A program made the position numbers and the translations under genes. A stretch of 56,832 nucleotides of DNA, filler included, from Dugesia japonica (taxonomy: Eukaryota), in NCBI GenBank assembly GCA_001938525.1. It is 6 parts of 6 records of this genome, joined end to end, with 100 filler letters (N's around TTAATTAATTAA, not from the genome) between each part and the next. Parts side by side here need not be neighbours in the genome. Positions count along the whole stretch, not along the records: positions 38,494 to 47,905 come from MQRL01629281.1; 5 more parts are not named here. One strand, written 5' to 3'. This document shows, in pieces, positions 1 to 54,089 of this stretch. Every line of letters starts with the position of its first letter. The first letter of the stretch is position 1. The notes beneath the pieces were generated by a model. The model was given only the letters and a program-made list of their open reading frames with translations, was not told the DNA's origin and searched no databases.

Positions 1-302
1 ATCTTTATAAACTAGCGAAGAGGCGATGGAAAGCGGAAACCACCACGGCCGAAGCTAAGGTAAAACGCTATAAGCGGAAATGTCTGACTTTTAAAGCGGA
101 GATGGCCGCCACCCAGAATCAGGAGAGGGTGTGGAAAACCCAAGTTGAAACTTTCGTCACAATGATTAAAACATACCAAGAACGTGAAAACCAACTCGTC
201 GAGAATATAGTGAAGTTACGAGCCACCATTCCTTTAGCCCCCCTCTTGATTGATAAGGTGCTCAGACCAATCGCTCCTGAGTTACCACCTTTGCGCCAAT
301 GA
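1..302 (+). CDS. Orphan coiled-coil 'ORF-A' family, copy 1 (5' truncated by window edge)
   Basis: Open frame LYKLAKRRWKAETTTAEAKVKRYKRKCLTFKAEM...QERENQL. Clearly homologous to 10722-11006(-) and 38684-39042(+), with many third-position differences between copies. Confidence 0.6.
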   Translation, partial: LYKLAKRRWKAETTTAEAKVKRYKRKCLTFKAEMAATQNQERVWKTQVETFVTMIKTYQERENQLVENIVKLRATIPLAPLLIDKVLRPIAPELPPLRQ

Positions 303-1656: not shown

Positions 1657-1700
1657 TATAATTAAATAAATCTAAATTTTAAAAAATATAAGTAGATAGA

Positions 1701-6073: not shown

Positions 6074-7973
6074 TCTCTCTACTATGTTGCCGCATCCATT
6101 CCGTGGATTATCTATTTCTACAACTTCATCTTGATCAATCTCGGAGTTATCATTGATTTGCTGTATATTTGTTTGTTTTAATAATTGCATTCTGGTTGCT
6201 ATACTTACTAGAGATTTTATAATAGCGATCTTACTAAGTTTTGGGAAATTAAATTGTANNNNNNNNNNNNNNNNNNNNNNNNNNNNNNNNNNNNNNNNGA
6301 ATGCATTATGCAAATAATGCATAACTCCAGATAGTTCTGTTCGTCTTTCATAGATCCGTTCCTTTAAAGCAATTAAAAGCTCATTGCTTAGTGTTGAATT
6401 TATTTTGCTCAGTTCTTCAAATAAAAACTTAAAATTGGTGTCTGCTGAAATTAAATTTGAATCTTTCCGACACAAGGCTTCGCCTGCAAGTTTCACTGGT
6501 TGAAGTGCGGAAATGGCTACATATGGCTTCAAATTCTTCGTCACTGAAAGAATCTAATTTTAAATCTATAATAGATTTTTGTATACAACTCTTTAGCTTA
6601 TAAAATCTTTCTAACATTGAAAATAAAATATTCCAACGTGTTTTACAATCTAAAATAATATCAGTTCCTTACCGAATTCAGCTTTCACATTAAATTGCAA
6701 TATTTTATCGTTCTTTGTTGGCGAACGACGAAATATTTTTACAATTTTTCTCAATTTTTTAATAAGTAGAGTCAGCTCAAAATGATTTATTTCTAATATA
6801 TTATTTTGTTGTCATTTAATTGTTAATCCGTTATCATTTTCAATGTCTTCATCTTCAAATTCATCCTCTGATTCACCATTAGAATCCCAGTNNNNNNNNN
6901 NNNNNNNNNNNNNNNNNNNNNNNNNNNNNNNNNNNNNNNNNNNNNNNNNNNNNNNNNNNNNNNNNNNNNNNNNNNNNNNNNNNNNNNNNNNGTGAACAAA
7001 ACATAATTGTTGGTCAGCACTGATAAGAGTGCCAACTTTCTTCATGACAGCTGCACCGTCCGTTGTTATGCATACAATGCCATTTTTTAATGATATACCA
7101 AATTGTTTTAACTTAGTATTTACAACTTCTACTTATTTAGTTGCTGGCAAACTTCCAAACATTCTAATTAATCCTAAGTTCCATACTTTTCTTTCTGAAT
7201 AAATATTTATGTTTATGTATCGGTGGTTTTTTACAGAACATCACTCGTCAAATGTCAAGCTAAATCCAATTTTATTTTCCTTCTGTTCTGCAAGCGCTTT
7301 GACATATAAATTTCGAATCTGGTTACTGTAAACAACAATATTTTTTTGAATACTGTTGGCAGATTTCGGAAGCTCGCCTATACGCAACGCTTATATTACC
7401 TTTCGAAGATATTCTGATGTAATAAATAATTTAAACGGTAAACCATCATAAGCACACATTCTCGCTAATACAACCTCTAATGAACTATTCGTTGTTTTAA
7501 AATATTTCGTTATAGTTGCACGTGGGCTTTCTACATTTGATTCAGTGTCAGTACTAGTAGCAGGAACATCACGCTTAAGAGTTTTTGGATTTTGCGTGGC
7601 CGCCTTTCTTTTCTTGTAAAAGAAACTGCAAATCGAAGATTTGTCGTCGTCTTTTGTATGTTTTACAAATTGTAAATTTTCCATTTCAGAAGATTGCATA
7701 ATGTTTATGTATTTAAAATAATTTATACTTTTAGTTTTTATCTTAATTGTAAAATTGATTATAAATTTAAAATTAAAAAATTTAAAATATTAGTTGACTA
7801 GATTTGCAAAACATACTACTATTATTTTAAATTTTATTATTTATTTCAAAATATTATTTTTTTTGTTTTCTGACAACTAAGATATTAATACAGAAATACC
7901 GCGGTATTAATGCTTTAAAACCGGTACTGAATACCGAAAAATATACTTCAGGATCCCGGTATTGCACTCCCTA
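6071..7973 (-). mobile_element. hAT DNA transposon, defective, 3' end lost
   Basis: Terminus TAGGGAGTGCAATACCGGGATCC with subterminal (A)ATACCG repeats. Transposase motifs LARMCAYDGLPF, FSLTFDE, ITTDGAAVMKKVG, QQLCFVH and LDCKTRWN..MLERF. Confidence 0.9.
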
Positions 7974-10621: not shown

Positions 10622-10721
10622 NNNNNNNNNNNNNNNNNNNNNNNNNNNNNNNNNNNNNNNNNNNNTTAATTAATTAANNNNNNNNNNNNNNNNNNNNNNN
10701 NNNNNNNNNNNNNNNNNNNNN
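10622..10721. other. Artificial contig linker (44N-TTAATTAATTAA-44N)
   Basis: Exactly 100 bp; identical at five places in the window; stop codons in all six frames. Confidence 0.98.
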
Positions 10722-11006
10722 TATTATCTAACAACTGATTTTCCCGTTCTTGATAGGACTTGATAATGTTGGCAAAAGTCTCAACTTGGGACTTCCACAC
10801 CCGCTCTTGATTCTGGATGGCATCCATCTCTGCTTTAAAGGTCAAACATTTCCGTCGATAACGTTTCACCTTAGCCTCGGCTTCGGCGCTCTCGGCTTCC
10901 CAACGCCTTTTAGCCAGTTTATAAAGATCCCAAGTGAGTTCCATATCCTCACTATCTTCTCGTAATTTCTTATTTGGCGCCTGGGATCTATTTAAAGATG
11001 AATGCA
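10722..11006 (-). CDS. Orphan 'ORF-A' family, copy 2 (starts at splice acceptor; 3' end cut by linker)
   Basis: tttcag|TGCATTCA then HSSLNRSQAPNKKLREDSEDMELTWDLYKLAKRRWEAE...QERENQLLDN, open until the linker. Confidence 0.65.
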
Positions 11007-11287
11007 CTGAAATATAAATATGCTTTTAAGGTGTTACACTTTATTCAGAGTTAACTGTTATTAGAAAAGTTGGGTCGTTTAGATTACAAATACTAATAAA
11101 TGAAATTAGTAAACCCAATCTCATTACCAATATATTTATGTTTTACGATTAACAAAAATGGAAACACTAAAATCAAAATTAAATTACTATTCCCCGAAAT
11201 CAACTCACAAGAAGATTTAGAATTGGTCATAAATATAATACTTATTTATTTTTAACAAAAACCAAACAGGTTAAGAAGGAATATTAT

Positions 11288-17769: not shown

Positions 17770-19344
17770 TAAAATGCGACTTTAAAATGAATCCCCAGTG
17801 ATAGTAAGTTAGGAATCAGTTATCAGCAGAAAACGAGTAGATATTAATCAGCAGCCCTAATAAAGAGTTCGACGAGGACGTCGAATTTAAACAAACCGAG
17901 GGTGGGTGAAGAGATGAAAATAACTTTAACAAATGTATGACTTAGATTAAAGGGTAAATGGTAGCGGGGGTTATCTAAAAGAATAATGTGTTACAGGTAC
18001 CTAACATTCGTTGGAGCAAGCACAATCGAGTCGGAAATCTTTGTAACAATTGGCACTATCTAAGTAAATTAGTGTATAATTATATCTTTTATAGAAATAT
18101 GCAAAGAAAATCATTAGAACGTTATCGCGAACAAAAAAGTAATGGAAGAAGGAGCAGTAAAAGAACAAGAAAATAAACGTATTTGGGGACTCTATGAACA
18201 ACTTGCAGGAAGGAAACAAAGGAAAAATGAAACCTGCCAGGAGTTTGCAGCCGCAATAATAGATTTTGCAAAATTAGCGGATCTAAAAAATGAACAGATG
18301 ATAAAAAAATGTTTCAGATCCGGCCTACGAGACCCATTGGTAAGAAACCATGTAGCTTCAAGCAAACCTCTTGATTTGACTACTGCTATATTAAAATCAG
18401 AAGCAATGAATAAAGTATTAGCAGAACAACGACTAATTATCGAGAAAGAAACCGTTAGTCAATGAACAATATATAAGCAAAATAGATGCCAAAATTGTCG
18501 GAGAACTCACCACAGTACCAATCAGTGTACAATCATCTATATATTTTGCAGCATTTGTGGTCGGAAAAATCACCCCATGGATAAATGCTGGCAAAGATAT
18601 TATAGTAAATGCGGAAAGAAGGGGCACCCTGAAGAGAGATGTCTACTCAAGAGAATCAGAATAGAAGAGGATCAAAGTTCAAGAGATGATAACGAAGTTA
18701 ACACAACTCATAGCTAACAAAGTGTGAACCAAAGTAAAGAATCAACTAAATTGCACATGCTAAGAACCAAAGTACCTGAGAGCCTAGGAATTAATGAGGT
18801 ATTACCAAAGACTCAGCGAGTACAAAAATGTTACAATTGTAACAAACAAAAGCACTAAGCTAAAGATTGATAAATAAAAAATAAAGTGTGTTATATCTGT
18901 GGAAAACAGGGCCATATCGCAAGACTATGTCGACACAGAATAGACNNNNNNNNNNNNNNNNNNNNNNNNNNNNNNNNNNNNNNNNNNNNNNNNNNTCGGA
19001 GAACTCACCACAGTACCAATCAGTGTACAATCATCTATATATTTTGCAGCATTTGTGGTCGGAAAAATCACCCCATGGATAAATGCTGGCAAAGATATTA
19101 TAGTAAATGCGGAAAGAAGGGGCACCCTGAAGAGAGATGTCTACTCAAGAGAATCAGAATAGAAGAGGATCAAAGTTCAAGAGATGATAACGAAATTAAC
19201 ACAACTCATAGCTAACAAAGTGTGAACCAAAGTAAAGAATCAACTAAATTGCATACAGAACAACATACAAACAACATACAGAAGCAGATTTCCAAATCCC
19301 AACAAACAAATCAACCAAACCAATTCAATTCAAATTCAAGAAGA
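17770..19344 (+). mobile_element. Ty3/Gypsy-like LTR retrotransposon gag remnant with several zinc knuckles
   Basis: RKQRKNETCQEFAAAI...IKKCFRSGLRD capsid-like segment. CCHC knuckles CYICGKQGHIARLC and CSICGRKNHPMDKC, plus a degenerate one, SKCGKKGHPEERC. Confidence 0.8.
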
Positions 19345-19444
19345 NNNNNNNNNNNNNNNNNNNNNNNNNNNNNNNNNNNNNNNNNNNNTTAATTAATTAA
19401 NNNNNNNNNNNNNNNNNNNNNNNNNNNNNNNNNNNNNNNNNNNN
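19345..19444. other. Artificial contig linker
   Basis: 44N-TTAATTAATTAA-44N. Confidence 0.98.
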
Positions 19445-20395
19445 TATATATATATATATATACAACAAAGATAATGAAAATTCTCTACCAAATGCAGAAT
19501 ACAAAGTATTGTCAATCGTCAATCAAACCTATAGTATAGGACAATCGAAATAGGTGTATAGTAAATAAAACAGAGAGAATAAAAGGAGAATACAATTTGG
19601 AGCCCTTTATCAATTCAATGACAGAAATATCCAACAACGAAATTTTGTTGTATAGATATAATTTTGAGAAGAGACTACAAAAAGGTCTTCATGCTTTAAT
19701 AGAAATTCAATTTCTTTATAGTTTGGTGGTAATATTATTATTAATATTAATACAATAATTATTATTATTTAATTAGTTATTAAGAAAAGAAGAAAGCACT
19801 TAAAAACTTCAATTCGATCCTAAGGTTCTTAAAAACATTTCATTTTTGATGAAAAACTTGGTAACGATTTTTGAACTTGATGCGCCAACAGCAGCTATCG
19901 AGATTTATAAGGAAGAAAAAGTAAACATTACTAATAAATTGAACATGGAAATACAATATCAGAGTCCAGAAATAATTAAAATAAACAGAACAAATGTTAA
20001 AATGCAAACTCTATCCATGGCATTTGGTAAGCAAAGGCAGTGTCGTGTGGATAGGAAGAAAAATAACGGTAATATATTTTTTATTTATGTAAACTTATTA
20101 ATTATTAGTTTAGATCTAGTATGCAATGTCAAACAATCACACCAATATCTTGTTTCTTGGTTGCAAAATACATTATTTTGTTGTTTATTGTTATACTTTT
20201 ATGTGTTATTTTTTCAATGTATTAATAAACTTTATTTAATCAAAGGCTTTTTTTTAAACATAGAGTTTTTAATTAAATAATAATTTTTTGAATTACCTTC
20301 TTGAATTGTTGGTNATATTTTTAATTCGGATATGAAATAATTTCTTTCAATATTTTCCAGCATTTCATTTATAATTAGGTCCAAATTCATTATTA

Positions 20396-20680
20396 ATGGA
20401 CAAATCATTCAAATAATCACGAATTTCTGCTGGAATCACCAAGTAGTGTGTATCCATATAGCAATGAATCTAGATTTGCATTCTTACACTCTTCCAAAAC
20501 CCTATATAATCCATCATAGACCCACTCAAAATTTCAAAGAGCAACTTTTGACTAAGTGCCCAATCATATAGGTTATTAACATCTATATACAAAAGGTCAA
20601 CATTTTTACTGGTGACAACATGTTGCTTGTTAACGAATGTTAACGCTCCTCTTATACCTCCTTTAAAAAAGGTATCATAT
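20396..20680 (-). pseudogene. Protein-primed family B DNA polymerase fragment (Polinton/adintovirus type)
   Basis: Manual translation FFKGGIRGALTFVNKQH...LLYIDVNNLYDWALSQKL/NFEW...GYTL/IPAEIRDYLNDL matches the GIRGG...YxDANNLYGWAMSQxLP...GY...LHDxxND pattern. Confidence 0.8.
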
Positions 20681-21119
20681 TATTATTATTGGATTATTAC
20701 GTAATAAGACAAGCATATATTAATAAGTTATGGTTTATTTTATTGCATAAAGGATTTTCATATTTTCATAGAACTTACTTCACTAATCTTTAAAAGGTGT
20801 CATATATTAATAAAAGAAGACAATAAGACTGAGTAAGGTCTAGTATGATATGCTTTTTATTTAAAATATTAGTTTATTTAAAAACTATTTCAGCATATTT
20901 TAATCATCTGATTATCCTTCATCCTCTTTGCTTGCTTCTTGGTTCCCTGCTTGCTTAATGGTTTCTTACTTGTGCTTTGGTTTTATGGGTTTACTTTTCT
21001 TTTAAATACTTAATATTCGAATACATTGTTAAAGAATAATAGTCCAACATATAAAATACTGATCTTATCATTAGATATATTGATCTCATAATTGCAAATA
21101 TTAGTTTCATTAGACAAAA

Positions 21120-28999: not shown

Positions 29000-29099
29000 N
29001 NNNNNNNNNNNNNNNNNNNNNNNNNNNNNNNNNNNNNNNNNNNTTAATTAATTAANNNNNNNNNNNNNNNNNNNNNNNNNNNNNNNNNNNNNNNNNNNN
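29000..29099. other. Artificial contig linker
   Basis: 44N-TTAATTAATTAA-44N. Confidence 0.98.
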
Positions 29100-31290: not shown

Positions 31291-32293
31291 GTTAGGTTTC
31301 AGAAGTTAGGTTTCTGAAGTTAAAAATTTGTACAGAATCTTAAAGAACTTCATTGAGTATGAAAAGAAAGATGAAAAATACATTTAAACAAAAAGAAATG
31401 AAATAGAAGAAAGATTTAATAGAATCAAGCTTATAGGTAGCCGATCGCGATCTATACTGCAGGTAACACCTGCACCCGCGGAGTCAGTGTCAGGTCGTCA
31501 AGGATCTGTTCAACTGTGTTTTTTTGCATAAATAAACGTTACATTTTGAGAAAATTTTTTTGATTTTTCCCATCAATTAATCCATATTTAAAACTTAATC
31601 AATATAACAATAACAAAGCTAGTATTACTGAACTGATAATGAAAATAGATTGTATTTCTAATAATAGTTTAAAAGAATTTAGAAAAATGTGGAATTAGTA
31701 AACGAATTTGTTAATAACGAATATTTACTATTAGAAATTGAAAATTATTGAATTAGAATACACAATGGTTTTGCATTTCAGCAGAATTTCATTTATTTAA
31801 TAAACCAATTAAATTTTAATTATAAATTCCAAATAATTTTCAATGTGATGTCCAAATACAACCCCTTCAATACCGAGTAATTTTGTTTGCTTTACTTAAA
31901 TTATGAAATAAAATTTAAACTGCAATCGAATTCTTGAAATACTTCTGAAAATAGTCAAAATAGTATAATATTACTTAAAATTAAGAGTTAATACCATACG
32001 CTTCTAAATTTAGAATTTTAAGAAATTTAGAAAGTTTTTATTCATAATACTTGCTATATTAGTTATAATTTTTACTTTGTTAATTTTTTTAATAATTAAC
32101 AGTGCAAGATTTTATTAATTATTTACTGTANNNNNNNNNNNNNNNNNNNNNNNNNNNNNNNNNNNNNNNNGAACAAAATATGAATATTAAATTAATTACA
32201 TTAACCGCAAGATTTTTAAACATTTAATTTTCAATTATCAACATATTTTTATTTGAAAAATATAATAACTGAATGTTAAAAAATTAAATATAC

Positions 32294-32858
32294 CCATAAT
32301 CCAACAGAGAATAAAGAAAATACAATGGCACTTCTAATATTGTTTATTTGCCAAGGCTTAACATTGTGCAGAATTCCAGTATGGGTGTTTGACCAGCGAT
32401 TTGTAAGATAACAAAACGAAACAAACCATAAAAATGTCCAAAGCCCTACAAATTATAATTATAATGATTACTTTTTTTTAATAAAACCTGAAAATCCAAC
32501 ATCTCCTAGTATTATATGTTTTCTACGTTTAATATTCGAAACATTATCAAAAACTATATCACTAATAATAAAACAAATTGCTCCCAAAAAAGCTATAACA
32601 CCAATGCCAGTTCCAAAACTACACGCACTATTATCTTTATTGTATAAGCATATGTTATTTGAACGACCACCAGATGAAATGCAACCGAAAACAATAATAG
32701 AGAAGAACTTAATGATAATAAATAAATATATACAATGAATCAATTATATAACTAACAAGGCTAATAATCCTACAGATCAGTTGTGGTTTTAATAAAACGG
32801 AAGCGAAATCAAATCGTAAACTAGCTTTAGCAGCTGACATCAAATTTGCAGGATCCAT
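32294..32858 (-). CDS. SYNGR: Synaptogyrin (MARVEL domain). Exons 32858-32757, 32707-32488, 32445-32294; 3' exon(s) not resolved
   Basis: Spliced product MDPANLMSAAKASLRFDFASVLLKPQLICRIISL|FFSIIVFGCISSGG..CLYNKDNSACSFGTGIGVIAFL..SNIKRRKHIILGDVGFS|GLWTFLWFVSFCYLTNRW..RSAIVFSLFSVGLW. GT-AG introns of 49 and 42 bp. Confidence 0.92.
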
Positions 32859-38393: not shown

Positions 38394-38493
38394 NNNNNNN
38401 NNNNNNNNNNNNNNNNNNNNNNNNNNNNNNNNNNNNNTTAATTAATTAANNNNNNNNNNNNNNNNNNNNNNNNNNNNNNNNNNNNNNNNNNNN
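38394..38493. other. Artificial contig linker
   Basis: 44N-TTAATTAATTAA-44N. Confidence 0.98.
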
Positions 38494-38683
38494 TGACATT
38501 ACTCTGAATCCACAATAAAATGTTTTTCTTGTTGTTTGTGTATTTAAAACAATAAATAAGTGACTCTGTTATCTTAATTTGATTCATTTCAATGTGTATT
38601 GTTCAGTGAAAACTTCTATTCTACATTAATATGAGGATGTATTTTCTAAGCATATTCTATTGATTATAATTATAAACTTTTAG

Positions 38684-39042
38684 TGCATTCTTCTTTGAAT
38701 CGACCTGCAATTCCCACGAAGAAATTGAGAGACACCAGTGAGGAAATGGAGCTCACTTGGGACCTATATTGACTGGCAAAACGTCGATGAGAGGCCGAGA
38801 TGGCCACCGCTAACAGTAAGGTGACTCGTTATAAGAAAAATTGTATCGCTTTCAAGATGGAAGCCGAGGCCTCCCACTTGCAGGAGCGAACTTGGAAGAA
38901 ACAGGTTGAGTCTTTTGCGGAAGTTATCCGATTCAGCCATGACCGAGAGAATAAACTAGTTAATGATATTTTACTTCTCCGAGAAAGAATACCTCTCGAA
39001 CCGTTGATGATCGAGAAGGGGACCCAAACTCATCGGAACTAA
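38684..39042 (+). pseudogene. Orphan 'ORF-A' family, copy 3 (two in-frame TGA)
   Basis: ttttag|TGCATTCT HSSLNRPAIPTKKLRDTSEEMELTWDLY*LAKRR*EAEM...QERTWKKQVESF..DRENKLV. Confidence 0.65.
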
Positions 39043-39164
39043 TTCACATAGTTTTTGTAAATAAAATTGCCGTTCAACTTTTGTTACGAATTTAGTTATT
39101 CATCTTAATGTTTTACTTGGATTTTGCTGTCAGGTTGTTTATATATTAATTTAATTTCTTTCAG

Positions 39165-39547
39165 TGCCTCGCATCGCCTTCCCCAATAACATCCGCAGGT
39201 GCCACCGCATAATGCGCCGTCTGCTGGTTGAGCCCCATCTAAAGCGGAAAACCGATAAAGCTCTGCTTAGACATTTGAACCAACAGGATCGTCTAATTAA
39301 GAAGCTTGACTACATTGTGATAAAACAAAATAACCTAGCAGCGCAGACAAAGGTCTTGGAGAATGAAAATAAAATGTTATTGCAAAGGAAAATAGATTTC
39401 CTCAAGCAATACATTTTTGACCTTTCTCGTCAATTAGGAAAGCCTACCTGGGTCCAATGGGACGACAACGACGACGTCGCCGCCTTCAATTTTTCGATAA
39501 CTCATCCGGACCAGTGGTTAGACCCTGGCGTACTAGACGAGTTATAA
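39165..39547 (+). CDS. Orphan 'ORF-B', coiled-coil-like, starts at a splice acceptor
   Basis: tttctttcag|TG CCT CGC... 127-codon open frame, GC-richer than flanks, no ATG at its start, AATAAA about 12 bp after the stop. Confidence 0.55.
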
Positions 39548-39726
39548 ATGTTATGTTAATAAATGTTTTCAAGTGTCATTGGGTTAAATTTAGGTGTAGG
39601 TAAGGGAAAATAGTGAACCCGAATAAAAAGGCTTATGGGCGCGTACTTCCCATTAAGAGTGAGGTTAACCACCATATGCTGAATACCTAACTTAGGGGCA
39701 TTAAGTTAAATTCTTGAAAGGGTCCC

Positions 39727-41357
39727 CTAAGGGCTGTTTTTTCGCCAGCCGCACTTTTCTTCATCTAACTCAGGTGGAACCCCAACACTTCTTAACCCGA
39801 TAAATAAATGGCGGGGAATATTTTGCATGATATCGAAGACAAGGGTTGTTATTACCGGTTCGATTGCTACATTCAATTGAATTTTCGATTGACAGTTTTC
39901 AGTAGTAATATTTGTACAGGTTACTTTGGTAGCTGAGTGATATATTTTAACAGCTGGATTTTGTTTTCTTATTCGGTCCGTTAACTCTTGGCTTATGACA
40001 TAAAGGTCAGCACTTGTATCGAACATAATTTTGATTGTTAAACCTGCTCCTTGACATTCTACAATCAGTTTGTTTCTTTCTTTTTCTGGTCTGGAGTAAG
40101 AGATGACTATTGATTCGTATCTTTTTAACTTTTGTTTTGATTTTGCTGCTTGGCCGTATATGAAGTTCACGTATTTTTTCTTCTATTGAAGGTTTTAGAT
40201 TTTTTATAATCTCTTTCAATTTTTCTTTATTCCATTTTTTCTGTAACACTAATTGGTTTGTTTGAGTCTCTTGGTTGTCCTCTCGTTCTGTTATACTGAT
40301 TGAATTATATTCACATTTTTCCTCATTATTTTTGCTATAGAACATTAATTTATTGTTTTCTTGGAAAAATCAGGCTATATGACCTCTTCGCCCACATTCA
40401 AAACATTGTTTATTTCAGCAAAATTGCGCGATGTGTCCTTCTTTTCCACACTTGAAACATTTCTTATTGATTTTTTTCTCTTTTCTATGGGTTATATGTT
40501 GGTTTTTTTTCTTGTTTTGATTTGTTGTTTGGATAAGCCCTTTTAGGGTTTTCAGTTACTTTCAATTCTTCTATTTCTCTCCTGAGTTTCTCTATTTCTA
40601 ATTTTAAGGCTTTAGCCGTGATTTTTTGTATCTCTTATTGAAAATTAAATTTTCTTCTTTGTCATTAGGTTTCTCATCTTTAATAGTTTCCACAGCCTTA
40701 TCTAGCGTTTTAGGTTTAAACAGTTCTAATACTATCGCCATTCACCCGTTAATCAACTCATTCACAAATGCTTTTACTAGGATTTATTCCTTCATTTCAT
40801 TAATGTTAAGACATTGCATTCTCAGCTTCTTGGCGTAATACGTTAAAAATTCGCTATTTTTCTGTCTTATCTCAAAGACGGTCATTTTCAAGCTTATCTT
40901 TGTCTTTTTGACTTCGCATAAGTTTATTAAAAATTCTTCGTAGCTTTCCATGGTTTCTTTAGATTCGCCAAATTTTTGATTGCATCTAATTTCTCTTAAA
41001 AGATCCTCGTCATAGGATTTTAAGAAAATTGCCTTCTTCTCACTTTCGATGATGCCAGAATCATCAGATGGTTTCACGAATTCTTCCACGGCATTTGGGT
41101 GTTTTTTGATCGTTGTAGGGCTCTCCCTATTTTTCTAGAGGATGAATAGTTTAGAATCCTGTTCATTAAATATGAACTTTTGTAGGATTGCGTGCTGCTC
41201 ATGTAACGCCATATTAGATTCTAAACTCGATTTTATTAAAAGATACGTTTAATAGATAAGTAAAAATATATATTTCATAACAAACTTTGTTTTAATATTT
41301 TTGGTTTTTTAGTTTTTTAATTTCAATATAAATTGAAATTAATTTCACTTTATATCA
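39727..41357 (-). mobile_element. Ty3/Gypsy-like LTR element: putative 5' LTR (41357-41212), PBS, gag, aspartic protease; RT/RH/IN deleted
   Basis: TG...CTAATA followed by TGGCG (PBS-like). Gag segment FEIRQKNSEFLTYYAKKLR and protease IKIMFDTSADLYVIS. Interrupts the Polinton protease gene. Confidence 0.7.
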
Positions 41358-41556
41358 TAATCGAATACCGGTATATTTTCTGGCTTATTGTACATTGCTA
41401 ACCAATGTTCTCCAACGAGATTTGATGATTGAGTATGGATGATTATGACCTTATTAACTCGAAAAAATAGTAGCTTGTTCAATGGATAGACATAAACAAA
41501 CTCGGATCCAAACTATTTTGTAGCAATTTTATTTATCTGAATTGAACTACTAAAGT
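41358..41556 (-). pseudogene. Adenain-like cysteine protease of Polinton/Maverick (N-terminal part)
   Basis: SSIQINKI...FVYVYPLNKL...IIIHTQSSNLVGEHWLAMYNKPENIPVFD matches NTxxSxxPGEHWVA...FDS. Confidence 0.8.
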
Positions 41557-41619
41557 AATATCAAAGAATAATCAAAACTTACTTCATTTTGGAAAACTAC
41601 TTTCATGATATTGAAATTG

Positions 41620-42400
41620 TTTTCATTAGTATTACTGTCTCATGTAATTTGAATTTCACTTTAGAATACTCCATAAACTTTTATATTTGCTGGTGTAATC
41701 AAAGCACTTCCAAACCTGATATCCAATCTTATCTTTCTTTGTTAAGGCAATTGACTCTGATTAATATCAAAATCCAGAGCAAGTACAAAGGTAAAGAATG
41801 GATATTTGTTTTTAAATTCCTCTAAAGTTATTCCACAATTCATATTCTTGTTCAGATATACCATATTTATTATTACTGATTGCATGTATGATGTGCTATA
41901 ATTATCATTTTCAAAGTCTTGGGTATATGTTACTCGAAAATCACCGTTTTTCGATAGAGTTAATGATTTGACATTGAAATTATCAAAATTTGATGTTTTA
42001 AAGTGTCTATTATATCTATCTCGTCTTTGAAATGTACCAAAAATAAGTTGGGCAATTGACAATTTCTAAAGATTTGCTACTTAAAAAAGATTGCACTATC
42101 TTTACTGATTGCATTAGCTACAATTTCCTTGGTCCTTATTGGATGCATTGCATTTTTGCTTCTTTTATCCGATTTGATGACCTGTTAGTACTGATGATTC
42201 AACTCAAACGTTTCTAACGATTAATTTTGCATCAAGCAATACAAATTTAGATTCTTCAGTTGACGTTTCTAAACCCATTCTATTGGCTGCTCTCTTCATT
42301 CGAATGTGAAAATTGACACCTGGAATAAGATATTTTGGTTGATCCGTGAAATTCAGTTGCAAAGAATTAGATAATGACAAGGCTTTGATGATTTAGTTGA
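41620..42400 (-). pseudogene. Polinton/adintovirus major capsid protein (C-terminal part)
   Basis: LQLNFTDQPKYLIPGVNFHIRMKR..KFVLLDAKLIVRNV.VESSVLTGH..HPI..; FDNFNVKSLTLSKNG..DFENDNYSTSY..GITLEEFKNKYPFFTFVL..IRLDIRFGSAL...IKVY. Confidence 0.8.
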
Positions 42401-42429
42401 CTTTGTTTATACACGATATGAAAATTGCC

Positions 42430-43000
42430 AATTGAATTTCCAGCAATTATTTGGACAACTTTATCACCTTCATACTTTTCTAGTTATATAGATTTCAATA
42501 GAGGAATACTAACATCGCCAACAATAACAGGTTCAGCAATGCTACTATAGATGAATATTTGCTAACGATGGTTCAACCACTTAGGTTTTTTGGGTGCAGT
42601 GAATTCAATAGCTTCTTGAGTTTCAATTATACCGCCTCTGAAATATGTTTGTTTGACTAATACAAGTGTTTTGTTAGGATTCCATCAAATTTAACACTTT
42701 TAACATTATTTAACAGCAAAAATCTGAATGGTTCATCCATTTTTAGATAAAGAGTTTTAAATATATTAAAGTAATTTTCCGCAAAATATTTATTTAACTG
42801 GTCCATTTCTATAATGTACAAATCATCTTTAAACTTAATTACATTGACAGTTTCTATCGAATAAAATAACTTTAATTTTATAGTTTCTAACGAATCATCA
42901 TTTTTAAACGTCTGAAAGAAAATAAACGTGAATGTAAATTCAATGTCGTTATTTACATGGTCAAAGCCAACTCGTTTTGCTTCTTCAAGTTTTCAAATTT
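42430..43000 (-). pseudogene. Polinton/adintovirus minor capsid (penton) remnant
   Basis: IFIYSSIAEPVIVGDVSIPLLKSI matches the conserved YxDIVEPQxVGDxxxPLLRxV motif; located immediately upstream of the major capsid remnant. Confidence 0.75.
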
Positions 43001-43017
43001 TAAATCATAATCATGAT

Positions 43018-44619
43018 TATTAGATAAATTCAAAACCTCACAACTCTCTGTAAGTTTTTATTTATTATGACAAGTTTTTTGATTAAAGCTAAAATGATGA
43101 AGAACAATCCATAGTATTCAAACAAATAATCTGAGAAGTTTTTAATAAAATATTTTAAAAATAAGTAAATGGTTACCTTGCCTAAATTCCATAACCATAT
43201 CTAGGCTACTTAGAAAATGCATCCAAGTCTGAAATTGCGGAGTAATTGGCTTCTTTGTCTTTTTCATAACAAACTTGTAAACCTTTTCTTTTACATCATT
43301 GTAATCCTCTTCTCGTTTATCTACGTTTTTTTATTTGTATAATTATTGATACTACTTTTACTATAATTAACAATACTGCAATTTTTTGAGATACTTAACT
43401 CAACGCTTCAACAATCTAGACTTCGATCGGAGCTTGACTATTTGGGTATTCATCTTGATAAATATTTGACCCTTCATTACAATAGTGACATATGGCTTCT
43501 CTACATGCACAATTTTTCCTATTTTCTTCAATTGAATTAACGTGACTTCCATTCCTTCTTGTGGAATTATTCGTATTGTTCGAATAATATCTTTGTTTAC
43601 CATTTCCGAATACTTTTCGGGTCTGTTCACTTTTGTTTTGATAACTAAACTTACTATTCATATTTGTGTAACAGTCTTCTGTGAGGTGTGCTTTCTTGTT
43701 TCATCTTGAGCAACTAACTTTGGTATAGTTTCTTCTTAAGTGTTGTTCAGATCCACAAGCATAGCACTTTTTTTTCTTTCTTGACAAGTTCTGCTTACAT
43801 AACCTATTTTGTTACAGATCAAACATGTGATTTATCGTATTTCGTTGTTTCTGTTCTGCTTTATTCTTTCATTACGACTCTTGTTGAAATTTCTTTGTTC
43901 TGGACCTCTGCGGGCTGTATCTTTGTAGTTAAGAACTACATTTATTCTTCAGTTTTTACTTCGTGTTTTGTGTCTTCCCACTCTTATATTGTTTTAAATA
44001 CATCTTCTAGATTTTCTATTTTTCCTGATTCGATCATATGTTTATTCTTTCTGTCATTGCAACTATTCATTATTAGCTACTTTGTTATGTCATCTTTGTT
44101 CCATTTATGAGCCATTAACTTCTCTACCATTTCTTCTATCTTCTTCTTATTGATACTCACATGCTCTCCATTCCTTCGATAATTTGGGGCTTTCTCCATA
44201 TCTTTAAAGATTATTGATGGTCTAAAGAAAGCCTTTCTGAATCTTTCTTCAAATCCCAATGATTCGTCTTCATTTTCAAAGATTTTACGTAGTTCTTTAT
44301 CTATAAAAGCAACTACAAACAAACTTCTATGGCCTTTCTTTATTTCGGCTATATAAAAACATTTCGCTGTCTTTAGAATACATTTTTCGACATCATCGCC
44401 TATTTTGAAAATTCATGGGTGCATTGCTTTTTTTTATAAAATCCAATGATGCGTTGGTCGCATATTAGTTAAATTCAAAACTTCACAACTATCCATAAGT
44501 TTTTATTTATTATCACACGTTTTTGGATTAAAGTAAAAAGGATGAAGAACAATCCATAGTATTCAAACAAATAATCTGAGAAATTTTTAATAAAATATTT
44601 TAAAAGTCTCTTAAGTACA
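43018..44619 (-). mobile_element. Gag-only LTR retroelement with about 150-bp direct repeats, nested in the Polinton
   Basis: Direct repeats 43018-43169 and 44463-44619 share GATGAAGAACAATCCATAGTATTCAAACAAATAATCTGAGAA. Degenerate PBS TGCGACCA. Gag with knuckle remnants CYACGSEQH and HLTEDC. Confidence 0.75.
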
Positions 44620-44659
44620 TTTTTTACAATAATATTTGAAAGTAAAATTTAATATAATA

Positions 44660-45937
44660 CAGGGTGTTCCAATTTAAGGTTACGTTTTAAATTTAATTCC
44701 ATTTATTTCTGTTTTGTTTTATTAAATCAATAATTGTTGAATAAGCAATAGTAATTCATGCGGTTTTTAAAAATCAATCGTTATATCATTGAACAAAGAG
44801 TATTTATGGTAAAAATTATTTTAAATACGACGAAAATTATGCCGAAGTTCGCAGTTTGAATAGGGAAAAAGAAAGTTGTCCGTCACATGTGACAATTCAA
44901 AAAGTTATAAAATGTGGCTCGATAAAAGATGAACGACGCCAAGAATATCATAAANNNNNNNNNNNNNNNNNNNNNNNNNNNNNNNNNNNNNNNNNNNNNN
45001 NNNNNNNNNNNNNNNNNNNNNNNNNNNNNNNNNNNNNNNNACAACTATCCATTCCAAGAACGACGTTATTCAGAATTTTGCATGAGGATCTTTATTTTAA
45101 GGCATTCAAGATTCCAATAACTCAACAAATAAAGCCGGTAGACTTTGAAATACGCCGTAAATTCAGTAAATTGAAAATATGCATGAAAATGAAACATTTN
45201 TCCAAAAAGTGATCTTTAGCGACGAAGCATATTTTGAACTAGGAGGATTTGTGAACACACAGAATTGTAGAATTTGGGGTAATGAAAACCCACATGAATC
45301 ACTACAAAAGCAATTCCATTCACCAAAGGTAAATGTTTGGTGTAGTTTTTGGGCGAGTGGTGTTATCGGTCCTAATTTTTTGAGAATGAAGCTTAGAATT
45401 CTGTAACAGTTACCGGAGCTCGATATCGAAATGTGACTGGAAAAGTTTTGTTTCATAAATTGAAAGGTATGGATACCCAGAACATGTGGTTTCAGCAGNA
45501 TGGTGCCACATCTCATACGGCAAAAGAAACAATTACCCTTTTAAGAAAACGATTTGGTGAAAGATTAATTTCTCGAAATGCAAACATCAATTGGCTACCC
45601 AGATCCTGCGATTTAACGCCTCTAGACTTTTTCTTTTGAGGTTATGTAAAGGAAAAGGTGTATATTAGTGATCCTCAAACAATTGTTGATCTTAAGGAGA
45701 ACATCATCTGTGAAATTGGTGAAATTAAGCTCTAGTTGTGCCAAAATGTCGTAGAAAAATTTTGTAATAGAATGGGTTCTTACTATGCAGCAGCAGGAGG
45801 TCACTTGCATGACATTATTTTTCATAGTTAAACCGGAATATATGTACTATGATTGAAAATAAATATATTGCAACATATCATACTTTTAGCTTCTTTTATT
45901 GAAAATTTAAAATGTAACCTTAAATTAATACACCCTG
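44660..45937 (+). mobile_element. rosa (DD41D) Tc1/mariner transposon, full length, defective
   Basis: About 35-bp TIRs CAGGGTGT..AATTTAAGGTTAC.TTTTAAATTT with TA flanks. VIFSDEAYF and WFQQxGATSH...WLPRSCDLTPLD, with 41 residues between the second (N-masked) and third acidic positions. Confidence 0.93.
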
Positions 45938-45989
45938 TATATATAAAAATTAAAAAATTTCACAGATATTTAAAATTTATTAATCATTC

Positions 45990-46416
45990 TTATAATGATG
46001 TAGTAATTTGATATGCAAGTTCCTTTTTTATATATTTTATAACATCTTCATATTCTTGACTTTAGAGTTGTAAAATTTCTTTCCCAAGTTAGTTTGTTAA
46101 TTATCAGGATGTTCATCTTCGAAACTTTACTTGATTGCAGCTTTCATTTCATTTGCTGATTTTGACTTGAATGGAACAGCTCTCGTAAATTTGCTAAATA
46201 GATCAAATAATGTATCATTTCCATCGAAAACATTTGTCATAAATCGTCAATACCAAATGTTTTATACGATCTTGTTGGAAATCTTTTCAACATTGGTTTG
46301 TTTAGACTATACAATAATTGATCCAATAGCCACTTTCGCGACTCGTCTTTTGAATTCACTCCTTTCAAACCTGCTGGATTTTTTAGGTCTCTCCAAATCG
46401 TCTTGGTTTTGGCCAT
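45990..46416 (-). pseudogene. Polinton retroviral-like integrase, N-terminal half
   Basis: WRDLKNPAGLKGV..KWLLDQLLYSLNKPMLKRFPTRSYKTFGIDDL*QM..FDLFSKFTRAVPFKSKSANEM..QTNLGKKFYN. Confidence 0.88.
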
Positions 46417-46504
46417 TACAACAATTTGATGCAAATCTTAGATTAATTCTTGGTAATGATTCTAAATTTCACATTGTTTTATATCACATTGAATATGTAT
46501 TGTT

Positions 46505-46825
46505 TTATGCAAAATTTGCTAGACCTAATATTGCTAATGCAATAGGTAGTAATGCGGCGATAAAACCACCATGTTGTTTGTACAATATTTTCTTCATTAA
46601 TTTCTTATTCTTGGTATGCACAAGCGATAGCAATGACTTTTTATGTTTTTCTAATGTTTGTTTTCTAACTTTACTTATAACTACATTACCACGAACTATG
46701 TTTACAATAATTTCTAATAAATCATCAACAACAAATGATGGAAATGATTGCAACATTTTTGATCTAGACTCTTTTGGAGCCTTGAGTAATATATTAAAAT
46801 ATGGAAGACTTTGTTGATATTTCAT
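46505..46825 (-). CDS. Small basic Polinton/adintovirus virion protein (adenovirus pX-like C-terminus), intact ORF
   Basis: 106 aa; EIIVNIVRGNV and KKILYKQHGG/FIAALLPIALAIL (GG protease-site-like motif followed by a hydrophobic helix). Lies between the ATPase and the integrase. Confidence 0.75.
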   Translation of the reverse strand: MKYQQSLPYFNILLKAPKESRSKMLQSFPSFVVDDLLEIIVNIVRGNVVISKVRKQTLEKHKKSLLSLVHTKNKKLMKKILYKQHGGFIAALLPIALAILGLANFA

Positions 46826-47115
46826 AACTTTCTATTAAAAACACACACACACACAAAGTTATTTGTTTATAACTTTATCCATTTTCCATTTACATTTGAT
46901 AACTTATTTCCAAAGTGTTTTGCTAATTTCTTAAACTGATTTAACGGCTTTGATTGTTCTTCTTTGTTGACTTATTTTTAATAACAATCTCTGTTGTCTT
47001 CTTTATTGCTTTGATATCTTTTGTAATGTTATCTTGTTTAATTTTTTTATTCTTGAGTTAATTAACTATAACTTTAATAAATTTTGCAATTTGTAAATAA
47101 AATAAAAAATTACAT

Positions 47116-47711
47116 TTATTGTTTATATGCGGTAACACTGTTTGGATTGAAAAAATCAGTTCTCATTCTAGGTTGATCTGAACATTGTTGTACAAAGTCC
47201 GTAAGAGATATCCATATGGATTTACTGTTGCGTATTTGAATGAATCCAAAAGAAATTGTCTATTGTTTGTACATGCCAGAAAATCAAAAACTGTTTGCTC
47301 TCTTGGATTTTTAAATAAAACCAAATATTGTACATTTAAATTACGAGTTTAATGCCCACCTTCTTGATGTAATAGATTCTGAGTAATAAATATTACAGTC
47401 ACAATACAGTGTCTTGATATCTTGATGAATAGATTGTTAAAGTCATTTTCCTTGTTTTTTTATTGGTATAAATCATCAACAACAATCATATCACATTTAG
47501 ACAATCTCTTGCTCCGGTTTTCATCTAAACCATTTATAATTTTCATGTTTTTATCACAGAATTCGGATTGAGTTAATACATGATCCTCATCAGCTTCTCT
47601 ATACCAATATATATTGTTTAATTTTGATTTTAATAGTTTATACACAAAAAGAGTTTTTCCACTTTCATTTGGACCGACAATTTGATAAACGGCATCATTT
47701 CTTAATTCCAT
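47116..47711 (-). pseudogene. Polinton packaging ATPase (A32/FtsK-like)
   Basis: Walker A GPNESGKT, Walker B IVVDDL, then ISRH..TVIFITQNL, LNVQYLVLFKNPRE and ATVNPYGYLL/D..RMRTDFF. Two stops and one frameshift. Confidence 0.92.
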
Positions 47712-47905
47712 TATTGTTTGCTTTAATGTATCAATTAAATTATTGTTTATGTATATGTATATATTCTTTTTTTAAAACTTTATTGACATAATTATGATTT
47801 CAAATATTAATTACGGAGGTAAAGTTTAACAGGAAGTTACTAGAAGTTACTAGAAAACCATTACAATGCAAAACATGAACAAAGAAGATGACTCATACAT
47901 ATTTT

Positions 47906-48005
47906 NNNNNNNNNNNNNNNNNNNNNNNNNNNNNNNNNNNNNNNNNNNNTTAATTAATTAANNNNNNNNNNNNNNNNNNNNNNNNNNNNNNNNNNNNNNN
48001 NNNNN
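47906..48005. other. Artificial contig linker
   Basis: 44N-TTAATTAATTAA-44N. Confidence 0.98.
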
Positions 48006-48302
48006 TAATGAAATTTAATTTAAAAAATGAAAAAAACCGGAAAGAATATCTCAATAATTCCTCAAAAATAAAAATATGATGAAATATAATTTATCAAATA
48101 ATTCATTTGGAGCCTCTAAAGTCGTAGCTCTTGGTACAAACACTCCATCCGCTTCTCCATTAGCTACGGCATTGCATATGTTTGAAAACTTATTGATTAA
48201 ACCGGTATTCATTTCCGTTAAATATCAATTCACGAATATTACATAAACATTACGCAATATGTGGATATTTAAACTTTAAAAAACTAAAAAATTATATTAA
48301 TA

Positions 48303-48998
48303 ATGCAATTAGCAGAAAATTCAGGAAATTCAATCGAAAATTGTAACCTTTGCAACAAGTTAGCTACATCTCATTTATTATATTTAAATTGTCCACATGG
48401 ATACCATCATACTTGTCTATTCAATTATTTTATTCGAACTGGTAATTCATGCTGCCGAATTTGTTTAATTCCGGTAAAACGTTTTTCAACTCTTCTAGAC
48501 AATTCGCTGCTATGTGGATTATATTATAAAAATGAGCCTCGGTTATTTCAAGTTGGTTATAGTTATATACGAAATCTTAACAGTGTAGGGTATGCGTGTT
48601 TAATAGGTTTGTATAGAATCCAAACACCTTTGGGATTGAAAATAAAATTAATCAACACACCATTTAAAGAATATATTTATTTGTCAAATGAAAACGATCG
48701 TTTCAATATTTCTAAAGAAGCTTTCGAAATTTTAAAGTGTAAGAAGATAGAAATCAACATTCCGTACTCAAAGAACGAAAAAGCCCCTGAAAAAATGTAT
48801 GTTGATGTATTATGTCAACATAAATTCCTTTCTCTTCTTTGTAGAATTCCAATTAAAAACGGTCTACAAATAGATAAATTTCCAATAATTGATGAAATTC
48901 AATATATTGGAAAGAGACTTAATATGTCAGATGTCGGTTTGACGAAAACTGATAAACCCAAATTGAAAATTTCTTTAAGTAATAATTTATGGGCTTAA
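48303..48998 (+). CDS. Intronless RING-H2 finger protein with unrecognised C-terminal domain, paralogue 1
   Basis: Intact 231-aa ORF. C-x2-C-x12-C-x-H-x2-H-x2-C-x12-C-x2-C. Full-length similarity to 53144-53860. Confidence 0.85.
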   Translation: MQLAENSGNSIENCNLCNKLATSHLLYLNCPHGYHHTCLFNYFIRTGNSCCRICLIPVKRFSTLLDNSLLCGLYYKNEPRLFQVGYSYIRNLNSVGYACLIGLYRIQTPLGLKIKLINTPFKEYIYLSNENDRFNISKEAFEILKCKKIEINIPYSKNEKAPEKMYVDVLCQHKFLSLLCRIPIKNGLQIDKFPIIDEIQYIGKRLNMSDVGLTKTDKPKLKISLSNNLWA

Positions 48999-53143: not shown

Positions 53144-53860
53144 TCAGCTGTAAATATCTCGACAAAATAATTTACTTTTCAAAACTATATTTGATTTCAT
53201 GGTTTTGTAATTTGTAGTCGAAGAAAACCAATAAAGTTTTCTACCAAATTCTCTAATTTCATTGAAAAATGGGAAATCATTGTAGCAAAATCCGTTCCTA
53301 GTTAAAATCGTACAACACACCACGAGTACATTCAATTTATTTATAATTTCTACTTTCATGTCTGTAATATGACCATTCGATATTGATGATCGAGACAAAT
53401 TCATTGGAATGAACACTTTTAATTTCTTACAGGATAAATCTCTGCATTGTTTCTTTGTGATTTGCATATGATTATTTTCATTTGGTATTGTGACAAACTT
53501 TTTTATTAGACTACCTTTCAGTGTAATTTTTAATGCTACAGGAAAATTTATTTCATATAAGCCTATTAAACAAATAAAACCGTCAACACGACATTTGTCT
53601 ATGTAAGAATATCCAATTTGAAATAGGGTTTTTTGATTACTACAAAATATTTTGCAGAGTTTATTGTCTACAAATAAATGCAATTTTCTCCACAGAGATG
53701 CACATATAGGGCAATTTTGTGATTTGTGTTCAATTGTGTAATTGATAAGACAAACATGGTGGAATTTATGCTCACACGAAATCTCTGCTAACTTCTCATT
53801 ACCTAGTAAACAAATTGAACATTTTTCAGACTTTCTCAACGAATTTTTCAGTCTTTCCAT
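53144..53860 (-). CDS. Intronless RING-H2 finger protein with unrecognised C-terminal domain, paralogue 2
   Basis: Intact 238-aa ORF. C-x2-C-x11-C-x-H-x2-H-x2-C-x12-C-x2-C. Shares LFQ(V/I)GYSYI, CLIGLY, NEN, CKK and FPxxxEIxxxGxxL with paralogue 1. Confidence 0.85.
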   Translation of the reverse strand: MERLKNSLRKSEKCSICLLGNEKLAEISCEHKFHHVCLINYTIEHKSQNCPICASLWRKLHLFVDNKLCKIFCSNQKTLFQIGYSYIDKCRVDGFICLIGLYEINFPVALKITLKGSLIKKFVTIPNENNHMQITKKQCRDLSCKKLKVFIPMNLSRSSISNGHITDMKVEIINKLNVLVVCCTILTRNGFCYNDFPFFNEIREFGRKLYWFSSTTNYKTMKSNIVLKSKLFCRDIYS

Positions 53861-54089
53861 ATTGTTAACAAAAATTATGTTTAAATAATTTAAATGTGGC
53901 TTATAATTAATGAGATTATGTAATTATCACGTAAGATTAGGTAACTTAATGTAGGAAAATTTACACAAATTTTATTTTATCTGTTTACAATTTCATAAAA
54001 TTAAAATTTTGCAAAATTAAAAATTTTAATTGCAAAATTAAAAATTATTTCAATAATAATATAAACTTAATTTAAAAAAAAAAATCTTC

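What the first reader, a model, noticed from the sequence alone, without database searches (positions are those of the whole stretch)
41358..47711. Endogenous Polinton/Maverick (adintovirus-like) virion module, mostly invisible in the ORF track
Seen: all on -, in order, packaging ATPase, a small ORF remnant, pX-like protein, integrase, minor capsid, major capsid and adenain protease, recovered by translating through stops and frameshifts. Established: this gene set is diagnostic of Polintons/adintoviruses. The module is broken by three insertions (rosa, a gag-only LTR element, and a Gypsy LTR in the protease) and by a deletion joining penton to mid-capsid sequence near 42.4 kb. Inference: it records a dsDNA virus lineage in this host that may be undescribed.
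Basis: partly seen in the sequence, partly recalled or inferred. Interest (0 to 1): 0.72.

Follow-up and report, generated by a model that had tools for sequence, protein, structure and literature searches.

The report
Decayed Polinton virus-gene cluster
This is a broken, transposon-riddled fossil of the capsid-building half of a Polinton (a virus-like DNA element common in animal genomes), one of many related copies in its host, so it is real but of a well-known kind.

Summary
On the minus strand lie, in order, a packaging ATPase, a lysine-rich small ORF remnant, an intact 106-aa pX-like ORF, an integrase, a penton, a major capsid and an adenain. Profiles from 39 metagenomic loci score six of them far above shuffles; the lysine-rich remnant rests on position and a short motif. 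Intact homologues of the two capsid genes fold as double and single jelly rolls. Seven relatives share the gene order.

Corrections: a second deletion removed the integrase C-half and the penton N-third. rosa is nested inside the LTR element rather than being a separate hit on the module. The Gypsy insertion is seen from one side only. No linked polymerase, TIR or target duplication could be shown.

Two DNA runs hold over 23,000 related contigs each, so this is one dead copy of a multicopy family. Decayed copies are the norm for Mavericks (PMC8097293). The best protein relatives are 63-73% identical and unnamed. Repbase could not be searched and the host is unidentified, so 'undescribed' is untested. 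A small Met-Gly/Cys-Cys ORF overlapping the integrase start is conserved in 8 of 8 relatives.

The parts
47116..47711 (-). A32/FtsK-type packaging ATPase, broken (two in-frame stops, a short deletion, one frameshift near 47200)
   Evidence: 138 homologues among 154 candidates, best 73% identical, most carrying PF04665; profile 217 bits; stops counted
46867..47057 (-). Remnant of a lysine-rich small ORF, putative DNA-condensing core protein (function inferred)
   Evidence: 5 of 6 relatives examined have a 50-70 aa Lys-rich ORF at this position, 4 ending in a Lys-Trp-x-x-Leu motif that the window also shows; low-complexity, so alignment E-values are weak evidence
46505..46825 (-). Intact 106-aa pX-like ORF (position of Maverick PZ)
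   Evidence: 47-61% identical to relatives; profile 126 bits. The pX label is weak: nearest Atlas cluster with a family scored 0.78, with PF05829 in 20% of members; no Pfam hit of note
46307..46474 (-). Broken remnant of a small ORF overlapping the integrase start in another frame; relatives begin Met-Gly and carry a Cys pair (candidate acylated membrane-active protein, inferred).
   Evidence: Profile 17.5 bits vs 4.6 in shuffles; present in 8 of 8 loci holding an integrase start, always in the same frame offset, two pairs being near-duplicates
46040..46416 (-). Integrase, N-terminal part only, with stops and a frame change
   Evidence: Profile positions 13-89 and 101-161 of 357; the L003 homologue hits Pfam rve at E 1.1e-12
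43018..46044 (-). Internally deleted LTR-retrotransposon-like element: putative 5' LTR (start at 46044 inferred, end 44463), gag-like region with degenerate zinc knuckles, 3' half of a second LTR (43018-43160). It occupies the site of the deleted integrase C-half and penton N-third
   Evidence: 143-nt direct repeat, 92%; mixed loose ends at 44463 in RNA reads; no target-site duplication seen; no Pfam hit for the gag region, so gag rests on reading the sequence
44658..45939 (+). rosa (DD41D Tc1/mariner) transposon, 1,282 bp, broken, nested in the putative 5' LTR; contains an 86-N gap
   Evidence: 50-bp terminal inverted repeat at 86%; TA at both ends and 41 residues between the second and third Asp positions, counted by hand, the second being an N-containing codon; joint 44657-45938 lacking it in 3 contigs of X1 and 2 of X2
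42436..43017 (-). Minor capsid (penton), middle part only, with stops and frame changes
   Evidence: Matches residues 115-301 of 346-aa P0176 at 42-48%; the P0176 model matches mavirus penton (Foldseek E 3.3e-7; Z 11.4, rmsd 7.9, 242 aligned)
42386..42436 (.). Deletion junction: penton tail, the ~110-aa ORF found here in relatives (position of Maverick PW) and the first ~150 capsid residues are missing
   Evidence: The 25-member profile of that ORF has no window hit; contig of X2 spans the junction
41625..42386 (-). Double jelly-roll major capsid protein, C-terminal ~250 residues, with stops and a stretch in another frame
   Evidence: 63% over 252 aa to P0121, 73% for the last piece; the P0121 model (pLDDT 82.5) matches iridovirus, PBCV-1, Sputnik and mavirus capsids (best E 2.8e-17)
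41357..41551 (-). Adenain-like protease, N-terminal part with the His motif; the remainder is not in the window
   Evidence: Profile positions 3-65 of 115, 50.5 bits; homologue from L008 hits Peptidase_C5 at E 0.0022, below cut-off
39730..41357 (-). Ty3/Gypsy-like element abutting the protease: LTR-like 41212-41357, primer-site-like motif, gag with zinc knuckle, aspartic protease remnant
   Evidence: zf-CCHC E 1.9e-7; gag-asp_proteas E 0.02; no second LTR on the contig

Best explanation
This is a dead chromosomal copy of the morphogenesis-plus-integrase module of a Polinton/Maverick (adintovirus-type) element that is multicopy in an AT-rich invertebrate genome. How the intact kind is thought to work (established knowledge and inference, not shown here): the rve integrase inserts the linear dsDNA into the host chromosome; after excision a protein-primed polymerase copies it; hexon and penton build an icosahedral shell; the A32-type ATPase packages the DNA; adenain matures small basic and membrane-active core proteins. 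Shown here: gene identities, order and breakage. Inferred history of this copy: it was inactivated and decayed neutrally; an LTR element came to lie at a junction where about 0.9 kb of integrase and penton is missing (recombination between two LTR insertions, or a deletion beside one); a rosa transposon entered that LTR; a separate deletion joined penton to mid-capsid; a Gypsy element cut the protease. The locus cannot make virions or transpose.
For: Profile scores far above shuffles. Capsid folds of unaltered homologues. Same order ATPase-pX-like-integrase-penton-small ORF-capsid in 7 of the 10 loci printed (L001, L003, L005, L010, L012, L013, L019), with a convergent long ORF in L003 that hits a DNA polymerase family at E 4.8e-20. 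The integrase-penton-PW-capsid-protease order is that of vertebrate Mavericks (PMC8097293). The window capsid piece has an end branch of 0.38 against 0.075 for its sister P0121 (support 99/93, 34 rows), as expected of decay. 23,511 and 24,097 contigs laid from DNA runs X1 and X2, mostly 90-95% or under 90% alike, plus near-identical single pieces of this locus in both. A host MARVEL/synaptogyrin-like gene with an intron lies 9 kb away, on another contig of the scaffold.
Against: No polymerase, terminal inverted repeat or target duplication is linked: the contig ends 194 bp upstream of the ATPase, and the only polymerase scrap (20383-20688) is 21 kb away across two linker gaps. An 86-N gap inside rosa could hide a mis-join, and no laid piece spans the whole stretch. 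Summed contig depth is not a copy number (tool note). The order of the insertions and deletions is inferred. L018's long ORF hit only endonuclease VII families, and L003's had no hit among solved structures.
Confidence: 0.9

Rival explanations
1. The stretch is a chimeric assembly: two separate Polinton fragments joined through the rosa repeat at the 86-N gap, so the apparent second deletion is an artefact.
For: The gap lies inside a high-copy transposon; no laid contig bridges the region; the LTR element shows no target-site duplication.
Against: Both halves keep the strand and order of intact relatives. The rosa halves are collinear, with matching TIRs and TA ends and a length of 1,282 bp. 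Each Polinton/LTR junction lies in gap-free sequence.
Confidence: 0.08
2. The remnant comes from a polymerase-less Polinton-like virus or virophage-type element rather than a canonical Polinton.
For: No linked polymerase in the window; capsid folds match virophage and giant-virus proteins only at about 10% identity and do not discriminate.
Against: rve integrase plus adenain in the Maverick order; five related loci carry pieces of a long convergent polymerase-like ORF (cluster 9); a scrap of the same polymerase type is in the window (36-37% to L003 and L018).
Confidence: 0.05
3. The intact pX-like ORF has been kept by selection (host co-option) while the rest decayed.
For: It is the only unbroken gene of the module.
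Against: At 106 codons it is short enough to survive by chance (inference); of 1,925 RNA reads laid from X22 on the whole 9.4 kb only 11 were 99% or more alike, and depth over this ORF is among the lowest of the module.
Confidence: 0.04

Closest known systems
Vertebrate Mavericks (Barreat and Katzourakis 2021, PMC8097293; parts 1-2 of 8 read)
   Same: Integrase, minor capsid, PW-position ORF, major capsid, protease in that order; ATPase, a small ORF and a PZ-position ORF in that order; most copies are degraded fossils.
   Different: There the two modules usually lie on opposite strands; here and in the relatives ATPase to protease run on one strand, with the polymerase-like ORF convergent downstream in relatives. 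Equating the small ORFs with PM, PZ and PW rests on position only.
Adintoviruses, Alpha and Beta classes (Starrett et al. 2021, PMC8502044; part 2 of 6 and passages read)
   Same: Hexon, penton, adenain, packaging ATPase, rve integrase and a pX-like membrane-active candidate.
   Different: Class not tested against the reference sequences. The 106-aa pX-like ORF shows no phospholipase domain, which leans to the Beta-type virion module (inference). The polymerase OTU domain and integrase chromodomain are not testable in this remnant.
Unnamed metagenomic relatives (P0001, P0121, P0176; loci L001-L039)
   Same: ATPase 73%, capsid 63-73%, penton 42-48% identical; same compact gene order, Lys-rich ORF and Met-Gly ORF.
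   Different: They have open reading frames; none of the 10 looked up carries an informative name. L001, L003 and L025 carry a TBP-like ORF that has no counterpart in the window.
R9XLG5, uncharacterised protein of Cotesia sesamiae Mombasa bracovirus
   Same: Best match of the capsid model among predicted viral structures (E 4.5e-25); that bracoviruses carry Maverick insertions is recalled, not from a call.
   Different: Only 25% identical, TM-score 0.40.

Membership tests
Polinton/Maverick (adintovirus) | A32/FtsK-type packaging ATPase | tested here: met
Polinton/Maverick (adintovirus) | Double jelly-roll major capsid protein | tested here: met
   Window piece 63% to P0121, whose model matches solved DJR capsids; the fold was tested on the homologue
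Polinton/Maverick (adintovirus) | Single jelly-roll minor capsid (penton) | tested here: met
   Window pieces match P0176 (E 6e-29), whose model matches mavirus, PBCV-1, Sputnik and adenovirus pentons
Polinton/Maverick (adintovirus) | Retrovirus-like (rve) integrase | tested here: met
   N-terminal part only; homologue hits PF00665 at E 1.1e-12
Polinton/Maverick (adintovirus) | Adenain (C5) protease | tested here: met
   63 of 115 profile positions with the His motif; the family label is weak: PF00770 E 0.0022, below cut-off, in 1 of 2 homologues scanned
Polinton/Maverick (adintovirus) | Linked protein-primed family B polymerase | tested here: inconclusive
   None on this contig; unlinked scrap at 20383-20688; polymerase-like ORF linked in relative L003
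Polinton/Maverick (adintovirus) | [quoted passage not shown] | tested here: inconclusive
   Contig ends at linker gaps 38394-38493 and 47906-48005; no repeat better than E 0.07 between the two ends; no genome held
Adintovirus Alpha or Beta class | Clustering of hexon/penton/PolB with the Mayetiola or Terrapene references; OTU domain on PolB | not tested
   Reference sequences were not fetched; the tree holds unnamed rows only
Catalogued Repbase/Dfam Polinton family | Near identity to a library consensus | not testable with these tools
   No such library is offered
rosa (DD41D Tc1/mariner) | TIRs, TA duplication, DD41D spacing | tested here: met
   the DD41D definition is recalled; Pfam gave no hit in 2 of 2 frames scanned
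Ty3/Gypsy LTR retrotransposon (element at 39730-41357) | Paired LTRs, gag-protease-RT-RNase H-integrase | tested here: inconclusive
   Zinc knuckle and weak aspartic protease only; no second LTR; RT and integrase not seen

The most novel reading that the evidence does not exclude
The remnant marks an uncatalogued, compact, one-strand Polinton clade that has amplified to hundreds of copies or more in an invertebrate, is still transcribed from other copies, and encodes an undescribed small N-myristoylated, Cys-acylated protein overprinted on the integrase start as its membrane-entry factor, next to a lysine-rich DNA-packing protein. Such a host would be a good place to look for natural Polinton particles.
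Probability: 0.2. Interest if true: 0.55.

Novelty: new member of a known kind. Interest (0 to 1): 0.24.

Why it matters
Taken alone, a decayed Polinton module is ordinary. It has two modest uses. It points to a multicopy family with intact, unnamed relatives, in a host with public RNA data; Maverick particles had not been observed as of PMC8097293 (2021), and a host with many copies is where they could be sought by observation. It also exposes a conserved Met-Gly/Cys-pair ORF overlapping the integrase start. Membrane-active core proteins are a recognised category for these viruses (Macc class, PMC11071296 passages), but one search on Polinton + myristoyl + integrase + capsid (3 papers) showed no description of this ORF.

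Tried and rejected
No genome is held for this window, so intact copies, TIRs and target duplications could not be sought. IMG/VR scans gave nothing: 0 of 223 stretches for the ATPase and 0 of 14 for the capsid. Pfam did not recognise the capsid, penton, integrase or protease pieces, nor 6 of 6 intact capsid homologues. The capsid profile found 0 solved structures by sequence. The Atlas gave no usable hit for the Met-Gly ORF. Cluster look-up of 10 homologues gave no informative name. Three look-ups of earlier scan notes returned nothing. No RNA holder was listed among indexed runs. RNA reads laid were mostly under 95% alike and on both strands (X21: 103 reads, X22: 1,925), so they say nothing firm about strand or about expression of this locus. 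P0177 among the 6 penton hits is a chance match (profile E 0.11). My first idea that the penton remnant included its N-terminus was dropped: it starts near profile position 110. The two RING ORFs and the gag-like ORF have no match in the 39 loci, so they were not counted as cargo. Host: the synaptogyrin-like exon gave one unnamed 91% match and arthropod matches of 46-58%; a planarian host is my guess from recall and was not tested. The one supplement file of PMC8502044 held had no flatworm or myristoyl term; supplements of the bioRxiv survey 10.1101/2025.04.19.649669 were not seen and may list this family.
Full report
Verdict. The finding is real and the family call is right: 41357-47711 is a decayed virion-and-integrase module of a Polinton/Maverick (adintovirus-type) element. 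It is a new or uncatalogued member at most, not a new kind, and whether it is already in a repeat library could not be tested.

Setting. The window is about 18-40% GC and consists of contigs joined by 100-base linker gaps. The module lies on the contig 38494-47905, which ends 194 bp upstream of the ATPase. Transposon remnants are frequent, and a MARVEL/synaptogyrin-like host gene with an intron of about 55 nt lies near 32.3-32.9 kb. Its named homologues are arthropod proteins at 46-58%, so the host is an animal, probably a non-arthropod invertebrate (inference). It was not identified, and no genome is held.

Checking the genes. Pfam alone saw only the ATPase, weakly. Homologue searches gave 138 ATPases among 154 candidates, best 73% identical; 24 proteins among 143 candidates for the capsid piece, mostly 400-420 aa, best 73%; and 6 hits for the penton piece, 5 of them real pentons. 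A capsid alignment retrieved 39 loci from 42 candidate stretches in metagenomes. Profiles built from their ORFs and run on the window with stops as X gave ATPase 217 bits, pX-like 126, integrase 64 and 54, penton 41 and 24, capsid 236 and adenain 50.5. The best scores in 50 shuffles were 3.5-15 bits. The unaltered homologue P0121 folded at pLDDT 82.5 and matched iridovirus, PBCV-1, Sputnik and mavirus major capsids (best E 2.8e-17). P0176 matched mavirus, PBCV-1, Sputnik and adenovirus pentons. The L003 integrase hits rve at E 1.1e-12; the adenain label is weaker, at E 0.0022 and below cut-off in 1 of 2 homologues. The pX label is a lead only.

Gene order. Seven of the 10 loci printed run ATPase, pX-like, integrase, penton, a ~110-aa ORF and capsid on one strand. 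Adenain follows the capsid in others, and a long convergent ORF in L003 hits a DNA polymerase family at E 4.8e-20. The order integrase, minor capsid, PW, major capsid, protease is that of vertebrate Mavericks, where ATPase, PM and PZ usually sit on the other strand (PMC8097293, parts 1-2 of 8 read).

Breakage. The penton-to-capsid deletion removes the penton tail, the ~110-aa ORF and about 150 capsid residues; a contig of run X2 spans the junction with 3 differences in 352 nt. That element has a 143-nt repeat at 92%, no visible target duplication and a truncated second LTR; its gag rests on degenerate zinc knuckles read by eye, with no Pfam support. rosa (44658-45939; 50-bp TIRs, TA ends, 41-residue spacing) is nested in the first LTR, and the form without it is seen in 3 contigs of X1 and 2 of X2. 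The Gypsy-like element begins just after the protease His motif; its far end and the rest of the protease were not found. In a 34-row tree the window capsid piece has an end branch of 0.38 against 0.075 for its sister P0121, as expected of neutral decay.

Copy number and expression. Twenty of 24 listed runs hold part of the stretch, none half of it. DNA runs X1 and X2, of two studies, gave 23,511 and 24,097 contigs on 9.4 kb, mostly under 95% alike, with summed depths of 60,000-110,000 in the best ATPase, integrase and capsid bins against 8-11 for near-identical single pieces. The tool warns that this is no copy number, and either run may be the source of the window; a multicopy family is nonetheless the plain reading. 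Of 1,925 RNA reads from X22, 11 were 99% or more alike; of 103 from X21, 3. RNA therefore comes mainly from related copies, on both strands and at low depth, which does not show virion-gene expression.

How it works. The intact kind is thought to integrate through rve, replicate with a protein-primed polymerase, and build an icosahedral particle from hexon and penton, filled by the A32-type ATPase and matured by adenain (established knowledge; PMC8097293, PMC8502044). None of this is shown for this locus, which has lost large parts of four genes. Confidence in the fossil reading is 0.9. Rivals are a mis-join at the 86-N gap (0.08), a polymerase-less relative (0.05) and co-option of the intact pX-like ORF (0.04).

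Membership. Five of seven defining features are met, in part through homologues. Linked polymerase and TIR/target duplication are inconclusive because the contig ends. A polymerase scrap at 20383-20688 (57 bits; 36-37% to L003 and L018) lies on another contig and cannot be tied to this copy. Alpha or Beta class was not tested.

Novelty. Degraded copies make up 96% of 3,511 vertebrate Maverick loci. A survey counted 20,702 integrase-linked pPolB1 genes in 960 genomes, in 17 of 23 invertebrate phyla (PMC10748475 passages), including 748 in 8 of 73 flatworm genomes (supplement row). A preprint reports 781,111 viral regions in 7,103 assemblies, many assigned to Orthopolintovirales (10.1101/2025.04.19.649669, passages; supplements not seen). 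In planarians, Polintons are known piRNA targets (PMC8532177 passages); that this host is a planarian is a guess only. Against 'already known': the closest proteins are unnamed and 63-73% identical, and IMG/VR held no relative. The one fresh detail is a small ORF starting Met-Gly with a Cys pair, overlapping the integrase start in a fixed frame in 8 of 8 loci that hold that start (two near-duplicate pairs), with a broken remnant in the window (17.5 bits vs 4.6). An acylated membrane-entry protein is the likely role (inference). The general category is in print (PMC11071296 passages); one search found no account of this ORF. PMC6431247 and PMC10680173 were seen as passages and added nothing specific.

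Score. Interest 0.24; new member of a known kind. The boldest reading not excluded, an uncatalogued high-copy clade with an overprinted acylated protein and still-transcribed copies, has probability about 0.2 and would merit about 0.55.

Noticed in passing
window 20383-20688 (-): Isolated ~300-bp scrap of a Polinton-type DNA polymerase on another contig of the scaffold, 36-37% identical to the long ORFs of L003 and L018.
   Followed up: partly
window 48288-48998 (+) and 53144-53923 (-): Two uninterrupted paralogous ORFs (34% identical over 211 aa) with an N-terminal RING finger and an unrecognised C-terminal domain; no match in the 39 Polinton loci.
   Followed up: partly
window 3-299 (+), 10723-11025 (-), 38683-39018 (+): Three copies (54-79% identical) of a coiled-coil-like ORF with no Pfam hit for the one copy scanned; one bin over the third copy has high summed depth, suggesting an unrecognised repeat family.
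   Followed up: partly
L003:2175-2618, L001:430-726, L025:2435-2914: Related Polinton loci carry a TBP-like ORF (PF00352, E 2.3e-17 for L003). TBP-like genes are mentioned in a figure legend of PMC8502044.
   Followed up: partly
L003:9125-12391, L018:2818-6474: The long polymerase-like ORFs carry an endonuclease VII/HNH-like insert, recalling the HNH domain described for nematode and oomycete pPolB2 (PMC10748475).
   Followed up: no
L010:952-1260: ORF with a dual-specificity-phosphatase-like His-Cys motif upstream of the ATPase in one relative, read by eye; possible cargo.
   Followed up: no
window 32279-32858 (-): Host synaptogyrin-like (MARVEL) gene with a short intron.
   Followed up: partly
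window 609-1669 (+), 4139-4814 (+), 6071-7789 (-), 18118-19215 (+): Other transposon remnants: mariner (Transposase_1, E 6e-18), gag with zinc knuckles, and by eye a non-LTR reverse-transcriptase-like and a hAT-like piece.
   Followed up: no
window 10622-10721, 19345-19444, 29000-29099, 38394-38493, 47906-48005: Artificial 100-base gaps with a central stop-in-all-frames linker; they produce false repeats and break physical linkage.
   Followed up: yes
window 43200-43300 (-): A short stretch before the truncated second LTR reads by eye like the end of a Gypsy RNase H, so the 'gag-only' element may hold pol scraps; no Pfam hit.
   Followed up: partly
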